Of a DNA stretch of 64,000 nt, positions 3,463 through 32,895 are shown piece after piece (within the stretch, counting starts at the first letter, position 1; each line of letters opens with the position of its first letter). This DNA is from Candidatus Daviesbacteria bacterium (lineage in GTDB: Bacteria; Patescibacteriota; Microgenomatia; Daviesbacterales; UBA10151), in NCBI GenBank assembly GCA_016432425.1, contig CP066688.1, positions 726,647 through 790,646 on the forward strand. Direction: 5' to 3'. A model generated the notes under the pieces. That model saw only the letters and a list, made by a program, of their open reading frames with translations. It was not told the origin of the DNA and searched no databases. Made by a program: the position numbers and the translations under genes.

Positions 3463-3975
3463 TTACTTTCCTATTCCCAAAACTTGGGATCCTAGCCAGG
3501 GTTGGTAATTGACCAGATGTAAAGAAAATTCTTGGTATATCTTAAAAAGAAAAAGTAAAATTAAAACTGCTGTAGATAATTTTCTGGACCAAAGTAATTT
3601 TTCTCCCCAGAATTTTTGATAAATTAAATAAAACAAAAAGAAGAATTCAAATAAATTGGGAAAGAAAAATAATAATTGCTTTGCTTGAGTAATCTCAAAA
3701 AGAATAACACCAACTATTCTATAAAAAAATAAACTGCTGGCAATTTTTTTAACTAATTTGTCTCTCCAGGTTAAAGCTACTATAAATTCCAAAGTCAAAT
3801 AATGAAGATCTAATACTTTATCTAGGTTTTGGTAAAGTATTAATTTCCCTGGGTCAAAAGCCTGTAGGATATTAAAATCAATATAATCCAGGAAAATACT
3901 TAAGAGCCCGCCAATGAGGGGCCATCTTAGAATTAGCAGTGGCAAAGTGATTCTTAAAAGAATTACTAATATCAA
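3463..3975 (-). CDS. hypothetical polytopic membrane protein
   Basis: 170-aa ORF, strongly hydrophobic with several predicted TM segments. No recognisable motif. Confidence 0.4.
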   Translation of the reverse strand: MILVILLRITLPLLILRWPLIGGLLSIFLDYIDFNILQAFDPGKLILYQNLDKVLDLHYLTLEFIVALTWRDKLVKKIASSLFFYRIVGVILFEITQAKQLLFFFPNLFEFFFLFYLIYQKFWGEKLLWSRKLSTAVLILLFLFKIYQEFSLHLVNYQPWLGSQVLGIGK

Positions 3976-4061
3976 GTTATTAATATATTTTTATCCAAGC
4001 TTTAGAGAATCAGATAAACTTAAAGTAAGAAAAAGATAGGAAAATTTGTTATGATTTTAAT

Positions 4062-4880: not shown

Positions 4881-6596
4881 ATGATTGAGGCAGAAATGTA
4901 CAAGAAAATAGAAATAAATAGGAAAAATATATTTATTGGAGTTGCATGGCCCTATGTTAATGGAGACATACATATTGGTCATATGGCAGGATATCTTCTT
5001 CCTGCTGATATAATTGCTAGATATTATCGAGCAGATAATTATAAGGTCTTAATGGTATCAGGATCAGATTGTTTTGGAACTCCAATTACCATTGAAGCCG
5101 ATAAAAGAGATTTACCCCCTCAAACTATTGCTGATATCTATCATAAACAAGATGAAAGACTCTTTAAAGAAGTTCTAGGTTTAACATATGATATTTACAC
5201 AAGGACTGATACTGAAAATCATATAAAAACAGTACAAGATGTTTTTATGGGACTTCTTGACAGAGGGTATATTTTTATTGACACCACCAAACAATTCTAT
5301 TCACCTCAAGAAAAAAAATTCCTGCCTGATAGGTATGTTGAAGGCGAGTGTAAAAATTGTGGATATGATGGTGCGAGGGCAGATCAGTGCGAAAACTGTG
5401 GTAAATTATTAGAACAAGATGAATTGATTAATCCAAAGAGTAAACTAACAGAACAAGAAGTTATACTTAAAGATACAGAACATTACTTTTTAGATTGGTC
5501 TCTGTTACAACCACAAATTAATGATTATGTAGCAGGCTCTGGATCGCATTGGAAAAATTGGGTTTTTCAAGAAACACAAGGCTGGCTTAGGAAAGGATTA
5601 AAACCCAGAGCAATCACCAGGGATATTAATTGGGGAGTTCCTTTACCTACGGATAGAATACCTAGTGATAAATTAATAGATAACCATCAAGAAAAACGTC
5701 TTTATGTATGGTTTGATGCCGTGATAGGGTATCTATCTGCTTCAAAACTTTGGGCTCAAGAAAACTCTGAAAACTGGGAAAATTTTTGGTACAATCAAGA
5801 TTCCAAACATTACTATTTTATGGGGAAAGACAATTTGATATTTCACACTATCCTATGGCCAGGACAGTTAATCGGATATGATCCAAAATTACACCTCCCT
5901 GATATGCCTAGTGTAAATATGTTTTACAATTTAGAAGGTCAAAAATTCTCTAAAAGTAAAAATATTACTATTGGCATAGAAGAATTAGTTAATCAATTTG
6001 GTAATGATGCTGTAAGATTTTATACTACCTTAACTATGCCCGAGACAAAAGACGCTAGTTTTAAATTCGATGATTTCATAGAAAAAAATAACCAGTTATT
6101 AGTTGGAAATCTAGGAAATTACATTCATAGAATTTTATCTATTGCGAGTACAGAAGATATCGGAAAAATTGCAGCATACCCTTTGTCTAGTGAGGTAAGT
6201 AAAGCTATAGATACATCCTTTGAAAAGGCTAGGTCTCATATTCAAAATTGTGAATTCAGGAATTATTTAGATGATTTATTAAATCTTTCGGATTTTGGGA
6301 ATAAGTTTTTTAGTTACCAAGAAGTGTGGAAATTAAAAAAAACAGATCGTGAGCAATACTGCAGTGCTTTAAAGCAATTGTATTCAATGATATTAGCGTT
6401 AGGTTATTTAATGGTACCAGTTTTACCGGAAACGTCTACTAGATTAGCACAGATGCTAGAAATTGAAACCTTCGATAAATGGCCTCAGGTAAATGAAGAA
6501 ATAAATAGGATTGAAGATCAACTAAAACAAGTCAAACAACCCATTAAGCCGACACCTTTATTTAGAAAGATTGATCCAAAAGAAACCCTAAAATAA
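4881..6596 (+). CDS. metG: methionine--tRNA ligase (class I aaRS)
   Basis: HIGH motif in PYVNGDIHIGHMAGY; KMSKS-type KFSKSK; zinc knuckle CKNCGY...CENCG; DCFGTPI resembles MetRS DAHGTPI. 571 aa. Confidence 0.9.
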   Translation: MIEAEMYKKIEINRKNIFIGVAWPYVNGDIHIGHMAGYLLPADIIARYYRADNYKVLMVSGSDCFGTPITIEADKRDLPPQTIADIYHKQDERLFKEVLGLTYDIYTRTDTENHIKTVQDVFMGLLDRGYIFIDTTKQFYSPQEKKFLPDRYVEGECKNCGYDGARADQCENCGKLLEQDELINPKSKLTEQEVILKDTEHYFLDWSLLQPQINDYVAGSGSHWKNWVFQETQGWLRKGLKPRAITRDINWGVPLPTDRIPSDKLIDNHQEKRLYVWFDAVIGYLSASKLWAQENSENWENFWYNQDSKHYYFMGKDNLIFHTILWPGQLIGYDPKLHLPDMPSVNMFYNLEGQKFSKSKNITIGIEELVNQFGNDAVRFYTTLTMPETKDASFKFDDFIEKNNQLLVGNLGNYIHRILSIASTEDIGKIAAYPLSSEVSKAIDTSFEKARSHIQNCEFRNYLDDLLNLSDFGNKFFSYQEVWKLKKTDREQYCSALKQLYSMILALGYLMVPVLPETSTRLAQMLEIETFDKWPQVNEEINRIEDQLKQVKQPIKPTPLFRKIDPKETLK

Positions 6597-27712: not shown

Positions 27713-27910
27713 ATGGATATGAAGAGGTCATATCAATATTTTGCCAAACATCCTCACTTTAATGCCATAGCCCATACCCTGGCCGGTATCGGGATAGGCA
27801 TGCTTTTAGTTTATCCTATTTTTGAGGGTCACACCGTCCGTTATGGACTTATTTTCTTAAGCTTAGGTTTAGCCTTACATGCTTATCCCCTCTTTATCGG
27901 CAAAAAGTAA
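27713..27910 (+). CDS. hypothetical small membrane protein
   Basis: 65 aa, two hydrophobic helices. Confidence 0.3.
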   Translation: MDMKRSYQYFAKHPHFNAIAHTLAGIGIGMLLVYPIFEGHTVRYGLIFLSLGLALHAYPLFIGKK

Positions 27911-27954
27911 TTGCGCGATCCCTTGCGCGATTATTACGCGATTTATGGTATAAT
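27911..27954 (+). promoter_or_regulatory. TGCGCGAT repeat array plus extended -10 promoter for the Fic gene (apparently leaderless)
   Basis: TTGCGCGAT at 27911 and 27924, TACGCGAT at 27936 (13-nt phasing), then TGgTATAAT (27946-27954) only 7 nt before the ATG at 27962. Confidence 0.5.
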
Positions 27955-27961
27955 ATAGCTA

Positions 27962-29020
27962 ATGTTTGATCCTACCTACTCTATCACTACCACAATTTTA
28001 TCCAGAATTGCGGAAATTGCCGAGATTAAAGCAGCGATTGAACGTTCCCGGGTCCTGCCTTTAAACGAGGCCCAACTGCGCCGCCAGGCCATTTTGCGGA
28101 TGGCCCATACTTCTACTTCCATAGAAGGTAATAAATTGGCCCAATTTGAAGTAGGTAAGGTGTTGGAAGGTCAGGTAGTGAGAGCTCCCCAAAAAGATAT
28201 TCTGGAAGTAGAAAATTATTATCAGGCCTTAAAACTTTTAGATGAGCTGTCTAAAAAGAAAAATGATATTACCGAAGAAGAAATCTTGAATCTACATAAA
28301 ATAATTGTTAACGGTTTGGTGGAGCCGGAAAAGATAGGTAAACTTAGGCCCGGTGATGTTTATATTTTAGATGATTTAGGTGATGGCCGGGAGCAATTGC
28401 GTTTTAAAGCCCCACCCGCCAAAGAAGTAAAAAAATTAATTACTGAGCTGCTGGCTTGGTTAAAAGATTCCCGGGAAAAAGGAGTACATCCTATTATCAG
28501 AGCCGGAATCCTGCACTTGCAATTTGTGACTGTCCACCCTTTTACTGATGGTAATGGCCGTCTGGCTAGGCTGCTAACCCAACTGCTGCTTTATCGGGAT
28601 AACTGGGATTTTCGCCGGGTGATTGTTTTGGAAGATTATTATAACCGTGATCGGTTGAGCTATTATAGCGCGGAAAATTACAGCCAGGGCAAAAATTATC
28701 AAAAAGAAATGGATTTTACTCATTGGCTGGAGTATTTTACCACCGGATTTTTGGTGGAGGCAAGACGTGCTTTGGAACAAGTTCAGGCAATTGGTTTTGG
28801 TAAAAAGAGCCGCAAATCCGAACAGATTTTCTTAACTAATGATGAGCTGCAAATGATGGATTTTTTGACTACAGTGGGAAAAATTACTTCGGATGATGTG
28901 ACTGATATTCTAAAGGTGGGCAAAAGATCAGCCCAATTAAAACTAAAACGCCTCTTGGATTATAGATTGATCAAGCAAACCGGTAAGGGTCCGGCTACTT
29001 TCTACACCTTGGCCAAATGA
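27962..29020 (+). CDS. Fic/Doc-family protein (putative AMPylase) with N-terminal inhibitory motif and C-terminal winged-helix
   Basis: Fic motif HPFTDGNGRLARLL (HxFx(D/E)GNGRxxR). N-terminal inhibitory TSIEGN ((S/T)xxxE(G/N)). C-terminal HTH-like DFLTTVGKITSDDVTDILKVGKRSAQ. Confidence 0.85.
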   Translation: MFDPTYSITTTILSRIAEIAEIKAAIERSRVLPLNEAQLRRQAILRMAHTSTSIEGNKLAQFEVGKVLEGQVVRAPQKDILEVENYYQALKLLDELSKKKNDITEEEILNLHKIIVNGLVEPEKIGKLRPGDVYILDDLGDGREQLRFKAPPAKEVKKLITELLAWLKDSREKGVHPIIRAGILHLQFVTVHPFTDGNGRLARLLTQLLLYRDNWDFRRVIVLEDYYNRDRLSYYSAENYSQGKNYQKEMDFTHWLEYFTTGFLVEARRALEQVQAIGFGKKSRKSEQIFLTNDELQMMDFLTTVGKITSDDVTDILKVGKRSAQLKLKRLLDYRLIKQTGKGPATFYTLAK

Positions 29021-29080
29021 TTTATGGTGAGTGAACTTGTACTGAGTGTAACCGAAGTAGCTGAACTAGTGCGCTTTTTT

Positions 29081-29127
29081 CTGCGCGATAATTGCGCGAT
29101 TTGCTTTTTTTACTCCATTATGGGATA
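29081..29127 (+). promoter_or_regulatory. second TGCGCGAT repeat pair plus extended -10 upstream of the RRM gene
   Basis: CTGCGCGATAATTGCGCGAT (29081-29101) then a T-run and TGgGATAAT (29119-29127), about 75 nt upstream of 29200. Confidence 0.45.
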
Positions 29128-29199
29128 ATAATTTTAGTGTGATGAGTGCATTTAGTATTTTTATCTAATCACCTCGCATGAATTTAGAAAGAAAGAGAG

Positions 29200-29466
29200 G
29201 TGATTTTTTTGAACAATAAGAAATTATTCGTTGGTTCCCTACCATGGGAAGTTGATGATAACAAACTCGCGGAAATTTTTTCTCAAGCTGGAACAGTAGT
29301 TTCTGCTCAAGTAATTAAAGATCGTGATAGTGGTCGCAGTAAAGGATATGGTTTTGTGGAAATGTCTACAGAAGAAGAAGCCCAAAAAGCAGTTCAAACC
29401 TTAAACGGTTCTGATGTTTCTGGTCGTCAAATTGTAGTCAACATTGCCCGTCCTAGAGAAAATTAA
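29200..29466 (+). CDS. RRM-type RNA-binding protein
   Basis: RNP-2 LFVGSL and RNP-1 KGYGFVEM. 88 aa. The start is a GTG at 29200 or a TTG at 29209, after the RBS GAAAGAGAGG. Confidence 0.85.
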   Translation: MIFLNNKKLFVGSLPWEVDDNKLAEIFSQAGTVVSAQVIKDRDSGRSKGYGFVEMSTEEEAQKAVQTLNGSDVSGRQIVVNIARPREN

Positions 29467-30508: not shown

Positions 30509-30590
30509 GGGCTAGTGGCGGAATTGGTATACGCGCGCGCCTTAAGAGCGTGTGGGGAAACCCTTGTGGGTTCGAGTCCCACCTAGCCTA
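30509..30590 (+). tRNA. tRNA-Leu (anticodon TAA), type II
   Basis: Acceptor GGGCTAG/CTAGCCT (G1-U72 wobble); anticodon stem CGCGC/GCGTG with loop CTTAAGA; long variable arm TGGGGAAACCCTT; T-arm GTGGG-TTCGAGT-CCCAC. Confidence 0.75.
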
Positions 30591-30705: not shown

Positions 30706-30777
30706 CGGGGACTAGTTCATCGGTAGAACGCTCGGTTTGGGACCGAGAAGTACAGGGTTCAATTCCCTGGTCCCCGA
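30706..30777 (+). tRNA. tRNA-Pro (anticodon TGG)
   Basis: Acceptor CGGGGAC/GTCCCCG; D-arm GTTC-ATCGGTA-GAAC; anticodon stem CTCGG/CCGAG with loop TTTGGGA; T-arm CAGGG-TTCAATT-CCCTG; discriminator A. Confidence 0.85.
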
Positions 30778-30796
30778 CTCTAATAATTACTCTTCA

Positions 30797-31354
30797 ATGG
30801 ACGAGCCAAACTTAAAACTAGCTTTACTTCAGGGTAAAATTGTGGTTATGCCTACAGACACTATTTATGGGATAGTAGGCTCTGCCCTAACCCAGGAAAC
30901 TGTGGAGAAGATTTATGCTTTGCGCAAAAGAGCTCTTAGTAAACCAATGATTATTCTAATTTCCTCTCTGGAAGATTTAAAGAAATTTAAGGTAGAATTA
31001 GATAGTTTTACCCTGGATTTTTTAAATAAACATTGGCCAGCAGCTTTAAGTGTAGTACTCCCCTGCTTATCCCCTGAATTTGAGTATTTACACAGAGGTA
31101 CAAAGAGTTTGGCTTTTAGAATGCCGAAAAATATTAAGTTGCTGAACTTATTAAGGCAAGTGGGGCCATTGGTTGCTCCCAGTGCTAATTTTGAAGGGGA
31201 AAAACCGGCTGAAAATGTGGAGGAAGCCAGAAAGTATTTTGGGGATGAGGTAATTTATGTGGATGGAGGAAAATTATCAGGTCAAACTTCTACTTTAATA
31301 GAAATTAAAAACAGCCAGGTAAAAATCTTGCGTGAAGGTGCAGTTAAAGTTTAA
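30797..31354 (+). CDS. tsaC: L-threonylcarbamoyladenylate synthase (YrdC/TsaC family)
   Basis: VMPTDTIYGIVGSAL, KPMIILISSLEDLKKF, PSANFEGEKPA (SAN..G motif). The ORF-track start at 30737 overlaps tRNA-Pro; the internal Met at 30797 is the likely start. Confidence 0.8.
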   Translation: MDEPNLKLALLQGKIVVMPTDTIYGIVGSALTQETVEKIYALRKRALSKPMIILISSLEDLKKFKVELDSFTLDFLNKHWPAALSVVLPCLSPEFEYLHRGTKSLAFRMPKNIKLLNLLRQVGPLVAPSANFEGEKPAENVEEARKYFGDEVIYVDGGKLSGQTSTLIEIKNSQVKILREGAVKV

Positions 31355-31497: not shown

Positions 31498-31770
31498 TTA
31501 TTTTCTATACACTTCATCATGCGTACCTAGATCTACAAAATATGCGATATCTTTGTCTAGCAGTAAGTAAACCATTCTAAGTCCTTTACTTAGGGAGATA
31601 CTCCATCTATTCGTAAGGTTACCTGTTAATTTATGTGTTCTTAGCGATGGGTGTTTCGGATTTTCTTGAAATAATGCAAGCTGTTTTTCTATTTTTTTGC
31701 TTAGTTTCTTGTCTTTTCTTTTTAATTTAGCAAGTTCACTAATAACTTCAGAAGAAAATTTAACGCGCAT
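31498..31770 (-). CDS. type II toxin, RelE/YafQ-family mRNA interferase
   Basis: HKLTGNLTNRWSISLSKGLRMVYLLLDKDIAYFVDLGTHDEVY matches the YafQ/RelE pattern (H.L.G......R..Y......I....G.H). 90 aa, immediately downstream of the antitoxin. Confidence 0.7.
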   Translation of the reverse strand: MRVKFSSEVISELAKLKRKDKKLSKKIEKQLALFQENPKHPSLRTHKLTGNLTNRWSISLSKGLRMVYLLLDKDIAYFVDLGTHDEVYRK

Positions 31771-31773
31771 TTA

Positions 31774-32037
31774 TTATTTAAGATCTTCAAAAAATTTATG
31801 CATATCTTTAACTTCTACTGCTTTATCATACTCTTCTAGTGCTTTTTTTGTATTTCTTTCTACACGTTCTGAAGCTATAAAAGTTGGATATTCTTCGTTT
31901 TCCACCTCTTTAAGGATTAAATGTTTAACTAATTGAGTCACAGGAACTCCAAGCCTAGCAGCCTTTGACTCTAAGCGATCGTTTAATTGTTCAGAGAGAC
32001 TGATTTTTAGCTGAATTTGTGAAGATATGGTATTCAT
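31774..32037 (-). CDS. type II antitoxin, RelB/DinJ-like (ribbon-helix-helix)
   Basis: 87 aa. N-terminal RHH-like KISLSEQLNDRLESKAARLGVPVTQLVKHLI and an acidic C-terminal tail. 3-nt gap to the toxin gene. Confidence 0.65.
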   Translation of the reverse strand: MNTISSQIQLKISLSEQLNDRLESKAARLGVPVTQLVKHLILKEVENEEYPTFIASERVERNTKKALEEYDKAVEVKDMHKFFEDLK

Positions 32038-32656: not shown

Positions 32657-32740
32657 ATACCTTATTAGAACTTTTCTATCAGTTTATGTACATTTATGTA
32701 GATAACTGTTGATTGGAGCTCTTTTACGAAAAAGTTCGCA

Positions 32741-32895
32741 CTCAGTTTCGCCAAAGGTAGGCGGCGCGGTCCTTTTCGCGCCGCCTCTTGTCCGCTCGGC
32801 CTTCGGCCTCGCTCTATGTATTTTTTGCTAAGACAGAAAGACGAATGCGCGCGATTTTTTTATTTATAGTCCGCCTATGGCGGACAGAAAAACAA
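32741..32895. other. GC-rich hairpin cluster in AT-rich intergenic DNA (candidate structured ncRNA or terminator stack)
   Basis: CGCCAAAGG family motif; AGGCGGCGCG-gtcctttt-CGCGCCGCCT; GGCC-ttc-GGCC; T-run; AATGCGCGCGAT (TGCGCGAT-like); GTCCGCC-tat-GGCGGAC. Confidence 0.4.

What the first reader, a model, noticed from the sequence alone, without database searches (positions are those of the whole stretch)
27905..29130. Fic/Doc AMPylase gene and downstream RRM gene share TGCGCGAT repeat arrays in front of extended -10 promoters; the Fic transcript is apparently leaderless
Upstream of the Fic gene there are three copies of (T)TGCGCGAT phased every 13 nt, then TGgTATAAT only 7 nt before the ATG, implying a leaderless mRNA. 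Immediately after the Fic gene, two more copies (CTGCGCGATAATTGCGCGAT) precede TGgGATAAT and the RRM RNA-binding-protein gene. A further TGCGCGCGAT lies in the hairpin-rich region at 32852. The motif is GC-rich against an AT-rich background and looks like a dedicated operator. The Fic protein itself carries the N-terminal TSIEGN auto-inhibitory motif (class II) and a C-terminal winged helix that could bind these sites (autoregulation).
Basis: partly seen in the sequence, partly recalled or inferred. Interest (0 to 1): 0.5.

Follow-up and report, generated by a model that had tools for sequence, protein, structure and literature searches.

The report
Self-operator repeats bracketing a Fic gene
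Short GC-rich repeats in front of and just behind a Fic (protein-AMPylating) gene of a Daviesbacteria genome are most likely docking sites for that enzyme's own DNA-binding tail, letting it switch off its own leaderless gene. The layout recurs in about 80 related genomes, and the protein's DNA-reading residues and the repeats have changed together.

Summary
TTGCGCGAT-type repeats occur only at the two ends of the Fic gene in this 64-kb window. Each array has three head-to-tail copies with start-to-start spacing 12 then 11 nt, not 13. The TGCGCGCGAT near 32852 is an unrelated singleton.

In 80 metagenomic loci with Fic orthologues (53-76% identity), the same [12,11] array lies upstream. It is followed by TGnTATAAT and an ATG typically 6 nt later, with no Shine-Dalgarno sequence, so the mRNA is inferred to be leaderless. 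A second array sits at the Fic stop codon.

Two natural changes in repeat sequence track changes in Fic's own C-terminal winged helix. One maps to the recognition helix (residues 320 and 323), the other to the wing (339, 343, 344, 351). This supports autoregulation by Fic, as shown experimentally for the related CccR and suggested for SoFic.

The downstream array follows the Fic 3' end, not the RRM gene, so a shared Fic/RRM operator is not supported as a general rule. More distant CPR homologues (43% identity) keep only the upstream array.

Verdict: a new variant of a known kind (self-regulating Fic-wHTH enzymes), with an unusual gene-bracketing tandem operator. No binding or transcript experiment exists.

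The parts
27911..27919 (+). Upstream array, repeat R1 (TTGCGCGAT)
   Evidence: conserved at this position in orthologous loci
27923..27931 (+). Upstream array, repeat R2 (TTGCGCGAT), 12 nt after R1
27934..27942 (+). Upstream array, repeat R3 (TTACGCGAT), 11 nt after R2; ends 3 nt before the TG of the extended -10
27946..27954 (+). Extended -10 promoter element TGGTATAAT of the Fic gene; no -35 at canonical spacing
   Evidence: TG present in 62/63 and TATAAT in 56/63 unique orthologous upstream regions
27962..29020 (+). Fic gene (352 aa). Class II Fic AMPylase with a C-terminal winged helix. The ATG lies 7 nt after the -10 hexamer, so the mRNA is inferred to be leaderless
28112..28129 (+). Codons for the auto-inhibitory motif S51-T-S-I-E55-G56 ([ST]xxxE[GN])
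   Evidence: sequence; invariant in alignment A1
28535..28570 (+). Codons for the catalytic Fic motif HPFTDGNGRLAR (H192-R203)
   Evidence: sequence; invariant in A1
28832..29017 (+). Codons for the winged helix-turn-helix domain (res 291-352). Recognition helix 321-333 is nt 28922-28960; wing 337-350 is nt 28970-29011. Contains the residues that covary with the repeats (320, 323, 339, 343, 344, 351)
29069..29077 (+). Downstream array, degenerate repeat R1' (GTGCGCTTT)
29081..29089 (+). Downstream array, repeat R2' (CTGCGCGAT), 12 nt after R1'
29092..29100 (+). Downstream array, repeat R3' (TTGCGCGAT), 11 nt after R2'. R2'-R3' can also form a 7-bp hairpin followed by a T tract (terminator-like in this window)
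29101..29129 (+). RRM gene promoter: -35 TTGCTT (29101-29106), 17-nt spacer, TGGGATAAT (29121-29129). Directly abuts R3'
   Evidence: conserved in 32 loci
29209..29466 (+). RRM RNA-binding protein gene (85 aa from TTG). A neighbour of the element, not a defining part. Its leader carries an SD-sequestering hairpin at 29167-29175/29197-29205

Best explanation
The repeats are the operator of the Fic protein itself. Fic here is a class II AMPylase of the SoFic/CccR architecture: a Fic core plus a C-terminal winged helix (wHTH).

Inferred mechanism. One wHTH reads one 9-bp unit, T(G/T)CG(C/T)GAT. The recognition helix reads the TKCGC half in the major groove, and the wing reads the GAT(A/T) half. 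Three head-to-tail units at 12/11-bp phase put three wHTH domains on one face of the DNA. They cover about -51 to -20 of an extended -10 promoter whose +1 is at or next to the A of the ATG. Occupancy should exclude RNA polymerase, giving negative autoregulation that keeps a potentially toxic AMPylase low.

A second array of identical geometry sits just behind the stop codon in the Daviesbacteria-type lineage. It belongs to Fic, not to RRM. It is probably a second operator, acting as a partner in a repression loop and/or as a transcriptional roadblock in place of a terminator. In this window it abuts the -35 of the RRM promoter and could affect it incidentally.

Shown by computation: the conservation, the geometry, the exclusive association with Fic, the covariation and the fold. 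Inferred: binding itself, the sign of regulation, the transcription start, and the role of the downstream array.
For: (1) Exclusivity. In 564 kb (80 loci plus the window), the triple pattern occurs 138 times against 0-1 in shuffles. 66 are upstream of Fic and 63 are at its 3' end. The rest lie within 2 kb, mostly across an inserted cassette. In the window there are only the two flanking arrays.

(2) Geometry. Spacing is [12,11] in nearly every array, both arrays share the consensus TTGCGCGATA-nA-TTGCGCGATTA-TTGCGCGAT, and the distance from R3 to the -10 is nearly constant.

(3) Covariation, switch 1. Repeats of type TGCGC-NNRA instead of TGCGCGAT occur in 13 of 13 proteins with wing R339 and T343-T344, and in 0 of 48 with wing G343-P344. 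This holds for each array separately. The four most discriminating of 352 columns are 339, 344, 343 and 351, all in the wing.

(4) Covariation, switch 2. TTCGCGAT versus TGCGCGAT tracks residues 320, 351 and 323. The seven best columns are all in the wHTH, and 320 and 323 are at the start of the recognition helix.

(5) Both protein states are scattered on trees built from the N-terminal 285 residues. Parsimony needs 5-9 changes for the wing state and 7-10 for residue 320 in every bootstrap replicate. For example, L138's N-terminal region is 85% identical to L126 (the other class) but 77% to its nearest class-mate.

(6) Upstream and downstream arrays of one locus resemble each other more than arrays of other loci do: 0.786 versus 0.662, with 0 of 10000 permutations reaching this.

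(7) No other conserved DNA-binding gene is nearby, and upstream neighbours vary.

(8) Deep conservation. Fic-wHTH homologues at 43% identity from Moranbacteria, Berkelbacteria and Parcubacteria (6 of 6 loci) carry TTGCGCGAT x3 upstream. There, R3's TTGCGC sits where a -35 would be, 16-17 nt from the -10.

(9) Fold and family. PADLOC SoFic scores E=8e-51 over the full length. Foldseek gives full-length matches to CbFic2 8cil, CccR 7xux and SoFic 3eqx.

(10) Precedent. CccR represses its own promoter through its HTH (PMC9755527). SoFic binds its own promoter DNA (bioRxiv 10.64898/2026.07.09.737422).

(11) In the most divergent clade the upstream array is flipped but stays in place. That fits steric repression better than oriented activation.

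(12) Leaderless start. The gap from -10 to ATG is 6 nt in 41 of 63 unique loci and 7-9 nt in 15. TG precedes the hexamer in 62 of 63. None of 67 has an SD-like tetramer.
Against: There is no binding, footprint, transcription-start or expression data.

The covariation may rest on few independent events. On the C-terminal-domain tree the wing switch needs only about 2 changes (bootstrap replicates 1-8). The wing codons lie within about 60 nt of the downstream array. So descent plus internal recombination of the N-terminal part could produce the association without function. The argument then rests mainly on where the changes fall in the wHTH.

Direct repeats are an odd target for the two-fold symmetric dimers seen in CccR and SoFic. 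Stoichiometry on three sites is unknown.

Direct repeats at 11-bp phase next to a promoter that lacks a -35 are also typical of activators such as PhoB.

The function of the downstream array is not established. In this window it could simply be a terminator hairpin.

The AF2 model has only moderate confidence (pLDDT 78.8, 26-sequence alignment).
Confidence: 0.62

Rival explanations
1. Positive autoregulation. Fic-wHTH bound to the tandem repeats recruits RNA polymerase to a promoter that lacks a -35, in the manner of PhoB/OmpR-type winged-helix activators on direct repeats at 11-bp phase. At the RRM promoter the array would act as an upstream activator site.
For: Direct repeats at 11-12 bp phase abut a promoter with no canonical -35. 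The distance from the array to the RRM -10 clusters at 30-31, 40-44 and 51-53 nt, about one helical turn apart.
Against: The extended -10 (TG in 62/63) needs no -35 or activator. R3 occupies the spacer at about -28 to -20, and in Parcubacteria-type loci it lies on the -35 position itself. The array is inverted in one clade without moving. The characterised relative CccR is a repressor. RRM promoters separated from the array stay intact. Part of the 10-11-nt clustering comes from extra repeat units.
Confidence: 0.15
2. A different, unlinked transcription factor binds the repeats and co-regulates Fic and RRM as a small regulon. Fic's wHTH has another role, for example non-specific DNA binding that tunes AMPylation, as in CbFic2.
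For: No binding data exist. CbFic2's DNA binding stimulates catalysis rather than regulating a promoter (PMC10628234). In the window both promoters have an array.
Against: Repeat variants track residues of Fic's own recognition helix and wing. Arrays are found essentially only at Fic gene ends in 564 kb. The array follows Fic, not RRM. The motif is conserved with Fic in distant CPR lineages that lack RRM synteny.
Confidence: 0.1
3. The arrays are recombination or insertion sites marking a mobile Fic cassette or a cassette-insertion hotspot. On this view their similarity reflects duplication at integration, not regulation.
For: Direct repeats flank the gene. In some loci the flanking sequence is duplicated too (L152). 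An R-M cassette (L129), an nth gene (L203) and an extra ORF (L191) are bracketed by arrays. At least five different genes are inserted right after the downstream array. Upstream neighbours vary.
Against: Fic-RRM synteny is stable across 53-100% identity. No recombinase is associated. Distant homologues have only the upstream array, positioned on the promoter. The fixed register with the -10 and the covariation with wHTH residues are not expected of att sites. Insertions falling only in the short gap between the array and the RRM -35 are explained by purifying selection on everything else.
Confidence: 0.05
4. The repeats act at the RNA level or as an intrinsic terminator. Adjacent GCGC cores pair, so the downstream array simply terminates the Fic transcript.
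For: In the window, R2'-R3' is called a terminator-like hairpin with a T tract. GCGC cores are self-complementary.
Against: Only 5 of 37 downstream arrays are followed by a T-rich tail. The fold of the window's Fic 3' region is no more stable than shuffles (z=+0.47). The identical upstream array lies upstream of the inferred transcription start. Variation follows protein residues, not base pairing.
Confidence: 0.05

Closest known systems
CccR of Yersinia pseudotuberculosis (PDB 7XUX), a Fic toxin that is also a transcriptional autorepressor (PMC9755527)
   Same: Class II Fic with an N-terminal inhibitory motif and a C-terminal HTH/wHTH. It binds its own promoter near the -35/-10 and represses it. 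The AF2 model aligns to it over the full length by Foldseek (E=4e-10).
   Different: The CccR operator is two inverted 10-bp repeats separated by 26 bp (AGATAATCAT-N26-ATGATAATCT). Here there are three direct 9-bp repeats at 12/11 bp. CccR has no second array behind its gene. CccR is a secreted T6SS effector. Sequence identity is only about 20%. Repression is inferred here, not shown.
SoFic of Shewanella oneidensis (PDB 3EQX) and the 'SoFic' single-gene anti-phage system
   Same: Same domain architecture. The PADLOC SoFic model matches at E=8e-51 over residues 17-345. SoFic dimers bind the 100 bp upstream of their own start codon (bioRxiv 10.64898/2026.07.09.737422).
   Different: It is not an equivalog: NCBIfam NF046030 scores 51 bits against a cutoff of 550. 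No operator sequence is defined for SoFic. The gene here is conserved and syntenic in a whole CPR lineage rather than sporadic like defence genes. Its target is unknown, whereas SoFic targets EF-Tu.
CbFic2 of Coxiella burnetii (PDB 8CIL; PMC10628234)
   Same: Fic plus a wHTH that binds DNA. Second-best structural match (Foldseek E=1.5e-12).
   Different: According to the paper's title, DNA binding induces CbFic2's (de)AMPylation activity and the enzyme targets histone H3.
Tandem helically phased operators read by winged-helix or RHH proteins (pho boxes of PhoB; parC iterons of ParR; plasmid iterons)
   Same: Direct repeats at about 11-bp phase, overlapping or flanking a promoter, implying cooperative head-to-tail binding on one DNA face (from general knowledge, not tested here).
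   Different: There is no receiver domain, partition or Rep function.

Membership tests
Fic/Fido AMPylase, class II (intramolecular N-terminal inhibition) | Catalytic motif HxFx(D/E)GNGRxxR | tested here: met
   HPFTDGNGRLAR at residues 192-203; invariant in 26 homologues; Pfam PF02661 E=3.2e-20
Fic/Fido AMPylase, class II (intramolecular N-terminal inhibition) | Inhibitory motif [S/T]xxxE[G/N] on a helix N-terminal to the Fic core, with no separate antitoxin | tested here: met
   S51-TSI-E55-G56, with H49-N57 invariant. The upstream small ORF is not conserved in other loci. The helix itself is poorly modelled (pLDDT<50 at 48-58)
Fic/Fido AMPylase, class II (intramolecular N-terminal inhibition) | AMP transfer to a protein target | not testable with these tools
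   No biochemical data; target unknown
Fic-wHTH bifunctional enzymes/regulators (SoFic, CccR, CbFic2 architecture) | [quoted passage not shown] | tested here: met
   AF2 model: H293-305, H310-317, H321-333, strands 337-340 and 347-350. Full-length Foldseek matches to 8cil, 7xux and 3eqx. PADLOC SoFic E=8e-51
Fic-wHTH bifunctional enzymes/regulators (SoFic, CccR, CbFic2 architecture) | Specific binding to its own promoter, with autoregulation | tested here: inconclusive
   There is only indirect support: exclusive association of the arrays with the gene and covariation of repeats with wHTH residues.
CccR-type operator | Two inverted 10-bp repeats separated by about 26 bp, matching the roughly 70 A spacing of the dimer's HTH domains | tested here: not met
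   Three direct repeats at 12/11-bp spacing in both arrays, compared
SoFic equivalog (NCBIfam NF046030) / SoFic anti-phage defence system | Score above the curated equivalog cutoff; sporadic defence-island context; phage protection | tested here: not met
   51 bits against a cutoff of 550. The gene is conserved with stable Fic-RRM synteny across the lineage. Phage protection is not testable
Leaderless mRNA | Transcription start at or within a few nt of the start codon; no SD | tested here: inconclusive
   The -10 hexamer ends 6 nt (41/63) or 7-9 nt (15/63) before the ATG. TG precedes it in 62/63. None of 67 has an SD-like tetramer. The start codon is fixed by the conserved N-terminus M1..P4. 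The transcription start was not measured
Class I FicT/FicA toxin-antitoxin module | Separate small antitoxin gene that supplies the inhibitory helix | tested here: not met
   The inhibitory motif is intramolecular. No conserved small partner gene is present
PhoB/OmpR-type activation on direct repeats | Response regulator with a receiver domain; sites that replace the -35 in fixed orientation | tested here: not met
   No receiver domain. The array orientation is inverted in one clade

The most novel reading that the evidence does not exclude
In Daviesbacteria, the two identically built arrays and the Fic protein form a gene-bracketing nucleoprotein device. Fic dimers bridge the promoter array and the stop-codon array, closing a 1.1-kb loop around their own gene, or they block read-through as a protein roadblock. 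Site-specific DNA docking also gates the AMPylase/deAMPylase activity, as DNA binding does for CbFic2. The enzyme's own locus would then be both its operator and its allosteric scaffold. The natural wing and helix switches (GKGP to R..STT; A320 to T320) would define orthogonal Fic/operator pairs.
Probability: 0.15. Interest if true: 0.7.

Novelty: new variant of a known kind. Interest (0 to 1): 0.5.

Why it matters
Fic enzymes with a winged-helix tail are very widespread, but an operator sequence has been defined for only one (CccR), and promoter binding has been shown for a second (SoFic).

This locus, with about 86 related loci, gives a defined 9-bp recognition unit and a fixed three-site architecture. 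It also shows two natural specificity switches that map onto the recognition helix and the wing. Together these form a ready-made recognition code that a handful of gel shifts could test.

The result extends Fic self-regulation to the Candidate Phyla Radiation, where almost no transcriptional regulation has been characterised. It also supplies well-supported examples of CPR promoters: an extended -10 with a leaderless start, and a -35/-10 pair for the RRM gene.

The operator copy directly behind the stop codon is unusual. If it forms a loop or a roadblock, it would be a compact way to insulate a toxic gene in very small genomes.

Tried and rejected
Only 3 of 120 hits were CPR. One of these (L023) proved useful.

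(2) A regulon search found no further arrays in the 64-kb window, and essentially none away from Fic in 564 kb. Whole Daviesbacteria genomes could not be scanned.

(3) The TGCGCGCGAT copy at 32846-32855 was rejected as a singleton with the wrong spacing.

(4) The idea that the repeats serve as -35 elements was rejected for this window: spacers to the -10 would be 9 or 20 nt. It does hold for R3 in Parcubacteria-type loci.

(5) The terminator or RNA-hairpin reading of the downstream array was rejected as a general explanation.

(6) A viral-contig scan for triple arrays gave 9 hits. None is next to a Fic gene. Three are coding repeats (L214, L218, L219). L211 and L215 lie next to a small wHTH ORF with no detectable similarity to the Fic wHTH. 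This was not pursued.

(7) Rfam found nothing but tRNAs in the window.

(8) A literature search for the motif string and for Fic in CPR found nothing relevant.

(9) A first bootstrap script with Biopython NJ timed out. It was redone with UPGMA. The single NJ tree gave the same parsimony count of 7.
Full report
**What is in the sequence.** The region reads as the first stage described, with corrections.

- Directly after the stop of a small ORF (27910) come TTGCGCGAT (27911), TTGCGCGAT (27923) and TTACGCGAT (27934). Start-to-start spacing is 12 and 11 nt, not 13.
- Three nt later comes TGGTATAAT (27946-27954), and 7 nt after the hexamer the ATG of a 352-aa ORF (27962-29020).
- Behind that ORF lie GTGCGCTTT (29069, a degenerate copy that was overlooked), CTGCGCGAT (29081) and TTGCGCGAT (29092). 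Spacing is again 12 and 11.
- R3' abuts a -35-like TTGCTT (29101). Seventeen nt further on lies TGGGATAAT (29121-29129).
- The RRM gene most likely starts at TTG 29209, behind GAGAGGTGA. It is called as 85 aa on identical Logan contigs.

Exact TGCGCGAT occurs four times in 64 kb, all here, against 0.35 expected; 0 of 100 shuffles reached this. Pair and triple array patterns exist nowhere else in the window. The 'further copy' near 32852 is a lone TGCGCGCGAT in a hairpin-rich spacer. It does not fit the unit or the spacing.

**The proteins.** The ORF is a Fic protein (Pfam E=3e-20). It carries the catalytic motif HPFTDGNGRLAR (192-203) and the class II inhibitory motif S51-xxx-E55-G56, both invariant in 26 homologues.

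An AlphaFold model (pLDDT 78.8) shows a C-terminal winged helix: helices 293-305, 310-317 and 321-333 (recognition helix), with wing strands 337-340 and 347-350. The model aligns over its full length with CbFic2 (8cil), CccR (7xux) and SoFic (3eqx). The PADLOC SoFic model matches at E=8e-51. It is far below the NCBIfam SoFic equivalog cutoff, at 51 versus 550 bits.

The closest database proteins are labelled Candidatus Daviesbacteria. The downstream gene is an RRM protein (Pfam E=2e-23; NCBIfam Rbp_regulator).

**Comparative anatomy.** I fetched 80 metagenomic loci that encode Fic orthologues of 53-76% identity.

- Nearly all show three repeats at [12,11] spacing upstream, followed by TGnTATAAT.
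- Nearly all show a second three-repeat [12,11] array that starts 3-10 nt after the Fic stop codon or overlaps it.
- Both arrays share the consensus TTGCGCGATA-nA-TTGCGCGATTA-TTGCGCGAT.

In 564 kb the triple pattern occurs 138 times, against 0-1 in shuffles. Sixty-six are upstream of Fic and 63 are at its 3' end. The few others lie within 2 kb, mostly on the far side of an inserted cassette.

**Leaderless start.** Among 63 unique upstream regions, the -10 hexamer ends 6 nt before the ATG in 41 and 7-9 nt before it in 15. TG precedes the hexamer in 62. None of 67 regions has an SD-like tetramer.

The N-terminus is conserved from M1, so the start codon is not in doubt. With a 6-nt gap the A of the ATG sits at the canonical +1. 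This is an inference from promoter geometry, because no transcript ends were available.

About a dozen other genes in the window have the same layout. Leaderless starts therefore look ordinary in this genome.

**Who reads the repeats.** Upstream neighbours of Fic vary, and no other DNA-binding gene is conserved nearby. The decisive evidence is covariation.

- *Switch 1.* Thirteen unique loci carry repeats of type TGCGC-NNRA (for example TGCGCAAGAT, TGCGCTAGAT, TGCGCGTGAT) instead of TGCGCGAT, in both arrays. All 13 encode a wing with R339 and T343-T344. All 48 others have G343-P344 and GAT-type repeats. The four most discriminating of 352 alignment columns are 339, 344, 343 and 351, all in the wing.
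- *Switch 2.* TTCGCGAT versus TGCGCGAT tracks residue 320 (T versus A/G/S), residue 323 and residue 351. The seven best columns all lie in the wHTH. Residues 320 and 323 sit at the start of the recognition helix.

So a change in the 5' half of the unit maps to the recognition helix, and a change in the 3' half maps to the wing. This is the geometry expected of a winged helix on DNA.

Both protein states are scattered on trees of the N-terminal 285 residues. Parsimony requires 5-9 and 7-10 changes in every bootstrap replicate. For example, L138 is 85% identical to L126 of the other class but only 77% to its nearest class-mate. The arrays of one locus also resemble each other more than arrays of other loci do: 0.786 versus 0.662, with 0 of 10000 permutations reaching this.

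*Caveat.* On the C-terminal tree the wing switch needs only about 2 changes (bootstrap replicates 1-8), and the wing codons lie next to the downstream array. Internal recombination of the N-terminal part could therefore inflate the apparent number of independent events. The location of the changes in the DNA-reading elements is the stronger argument.

**Depth of conservation.** One hit from the motif-only genome scan (L023, Moraniibacteriota) turned out to lie directly upstream of a Fic-wHTH of 43% identity.

Five further loci of that family have TTGCGCGAT x3 upstream. They carry the source labels Moranbacteria, Berkelbacteria, Parcubacteria and Margulisbacteria, plus one unlabelled. In these, R3's TTGCGC sits 16-17 nt from the -10, where a -35 would be. 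Leaders are 11-30 nt without an SD, and there is no downstream array.

The upstream operator is therefore old and overlaps the core promoter in both families. The stop-codon array and the exact leaderless register are innovations of the Daviesbacteria-type lineage.

**The downstream array and the RRM gene.** Fic-RRM synteny is common, but the array tracks Fic.

- It is present at the Fic stop in 29 of 31 unique loci with RRM adjacent.
- It is present in 8 of 8 loci where other, mostly reverse-strand, genes were inserted between Fic and RRM.
- It is present in 15 of 19 loci without RRM downstream.
- Two loci with RRM adjacent lack it.

In the insertion loci the RRM promoter keeps its -35 and TGnGAyAAT without an array. 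The one exception is L203, which has an array on both sides of the insert.

Where array and promoter are adjacent, the distance from R3 to the -10 clusters at 40-44 nt. It is 31 nt in this window and 30 in L164, and 51-53 in four loci. An influence on RRM transcription is therefore possible, but it is not what maintains the array.

In this window R2'-R3' also scores as a terminator-like hairpin with a T tract. Only 5 of 37 loci have such a tail, and the fold is unremarkable. Most loci have no room for a terminator between Fic and the RRM promoter. A protein roadblock or a loop with the promoter array is therefore my preferred reading, but it remains untested.

**Mechanism proposed.** Fic binds its own promoter array through the wHTH, covering about -51 to -20, and excludes RNA polymerase. 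This would be negative autoregulation of a potentially toxic enzyme.

The sign of regulation is inferred from four things:
- the position of the sites;
- the self-sufficiency of an extended -10;
- the in-place inversion of the array in the most divergent clade (L199, L202-L204);
- the experimentally shown autorepression by CccR (PMC9755527) and promoter binding by SoFic (bioRxiv 10.64898/2026.07.09.737422).

CbFic2 shows that DNA binding can also switch on Fic catalysis (PMC10628234). That keeps open a more novel reading in which the arrays also gate enzyme activity.

**Comparison and novelty.** The protein is a member of the class II Fic family and of the Fic-wHTH architecture. It is not a SoFic equivalog.

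The operator fails the CccR pattern of two inverted 10-mers spaced by 26 bp. It is instead a tandem, helically phased triple site, duplicated behind the gene. I found no paper that mentions the motif or Fic in CPR bacteria.

I rate it a new variant of a known kind. It has solid comparative support and no experimental support. Interest is moderate: the result is not surprising in principle, but it is unusually well defined and directly testable.

Noticed in passing
window 29101-29208 (promoter and leader of the RRM gene): The RRM gene has a conserved promoter (-35 TTGCTT, TGGGATAAT) and a leader of about 70 nt. A 9-10-bp hairpin pairs AUCACCUC (29167-29175) with the Shine-Dalgarno GAGGUGAU (29197-29205). 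The hairpin is kept in 32 loci, but with almost no compensatory change. There is no Rfam match. It could be a thermosensor or an autoregulatory site of the RNA-binding protein.
   Followed up: partly
L128 ~3945-3980, L131, L156 (upstream arrays); L146 ~5075-5110 (downstream array): A 32-nt palindromic element, CCAGCCTCGACTAnACGTCGAGTCTAGGCGGG, is inserted at exactly the same point, after R3 'TTGCGYGA'. It occurs in four arrays of different loci and pushes the -10 about 32 nt away from the operator. Other CCTGCC...GGCAGG hairpins sit next to arrays in L151, L128, L143 and L159.
   Followed up: no
L129 2139-3990; L191 5060-5750; L203 5050-5900; L202 5062-5880: Extra genes are bracketed by arrays. 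L129 has an R-M cassette (methyltransferase plus endonuclease) between a promoter-less array and the Fic promoter array. L191 has a 209-aa ORF between the Fic stop and the downstream array; by eye it looks like a double LuxR-type HTH protein (not scanned). L203 has an nth-like gene (also judged by eye, not scanned) with an array on both sides. At least five different reverse-strand genes are inserted in the short gap between the downstream array and the RRM -35.
   Followed up: partly
L199, L202, L203, L204 (about 48 nt upstream of Fic): In the most divergent orthologue clade (53-55% identity), the upstream array lies on the opposite strand with mirrored spacing but in the same place. The downstream array keeps the usual orientation.
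   Followed up: partly
L023 1060-1100 (-); L205, L207, L208, L209, L210 (about 40-75 nt upstream of Fic): Fic-wHTH homologues of 43% identity from other CPR lineages keep TTGCGCGAT x3 (spacing 11/11 or 12/11) with R3 at the -35 position. They have no downstream array, no RRM neighbour, and SD-less leaders of 11-30 nt.
   Followed up: yes
L211 4133-4162 and L215 2076-2105 (IMG/VR contigs); also L212, L213, L217: Array-like triple repeats occur in contigs classified as viral, with no Fic gene nearby. In L211/L215 the array lies in the promoter region of a two-gene unit whose second product (86 aa, 3607-3867 minus strand) looks by eye like a small winged-helix protein (not scanned). It has no detectable similarity to the Fic wHTH. 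L214, L218 and L219 are coding repeats.
   Followed up: partly
L070 446-473 (-): A triple array in a Patescibacteria contig lies about 250 nt downstream of a 321-aa gene with a Doc/Fic-type motif (HPFVDGNKR) of a different family.
   Followed up: no
window 32740-32890: Three GC-rich hairpins sit in an otherwise AT-rich spacer: GGCGGCGCGG..CGCGCCGCC, GGCCTTCGGCC and GTCCGCCTATGGCGGAC. There is no Rfam match.
   Followed up: no
window, e.g. 802(-), 24441(-), 30450(-), 37538(-), 37561(+), 42205(-), 45923(-), 51453(+)/51461(-), 52143(+), 54520(-): About a dozen other ORFs have a TAnAAT hexamer 6-9 nt before their first start codon. This suggests leaderless mRNAs are common in this genome.
   Followed up: partly
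window 30706-30777 vs ORF 30737-31354: A tRNA overlaps the mechanically listed start of the Sua5/YrdC-family ORF, so that gene must start further downstream. Two tRNAs (30509-30590 and 30706-30777) lie between it and the polysaccharide deacetylase gene.
   Followed up: no
window 31498-32037 (-): A ParE/YafQ-like toxin (90 aa) and a ribbon-helix-helix antitoxin (87 aa) form a pair 2.5 kb downstream of Fic.
   Followed up: no
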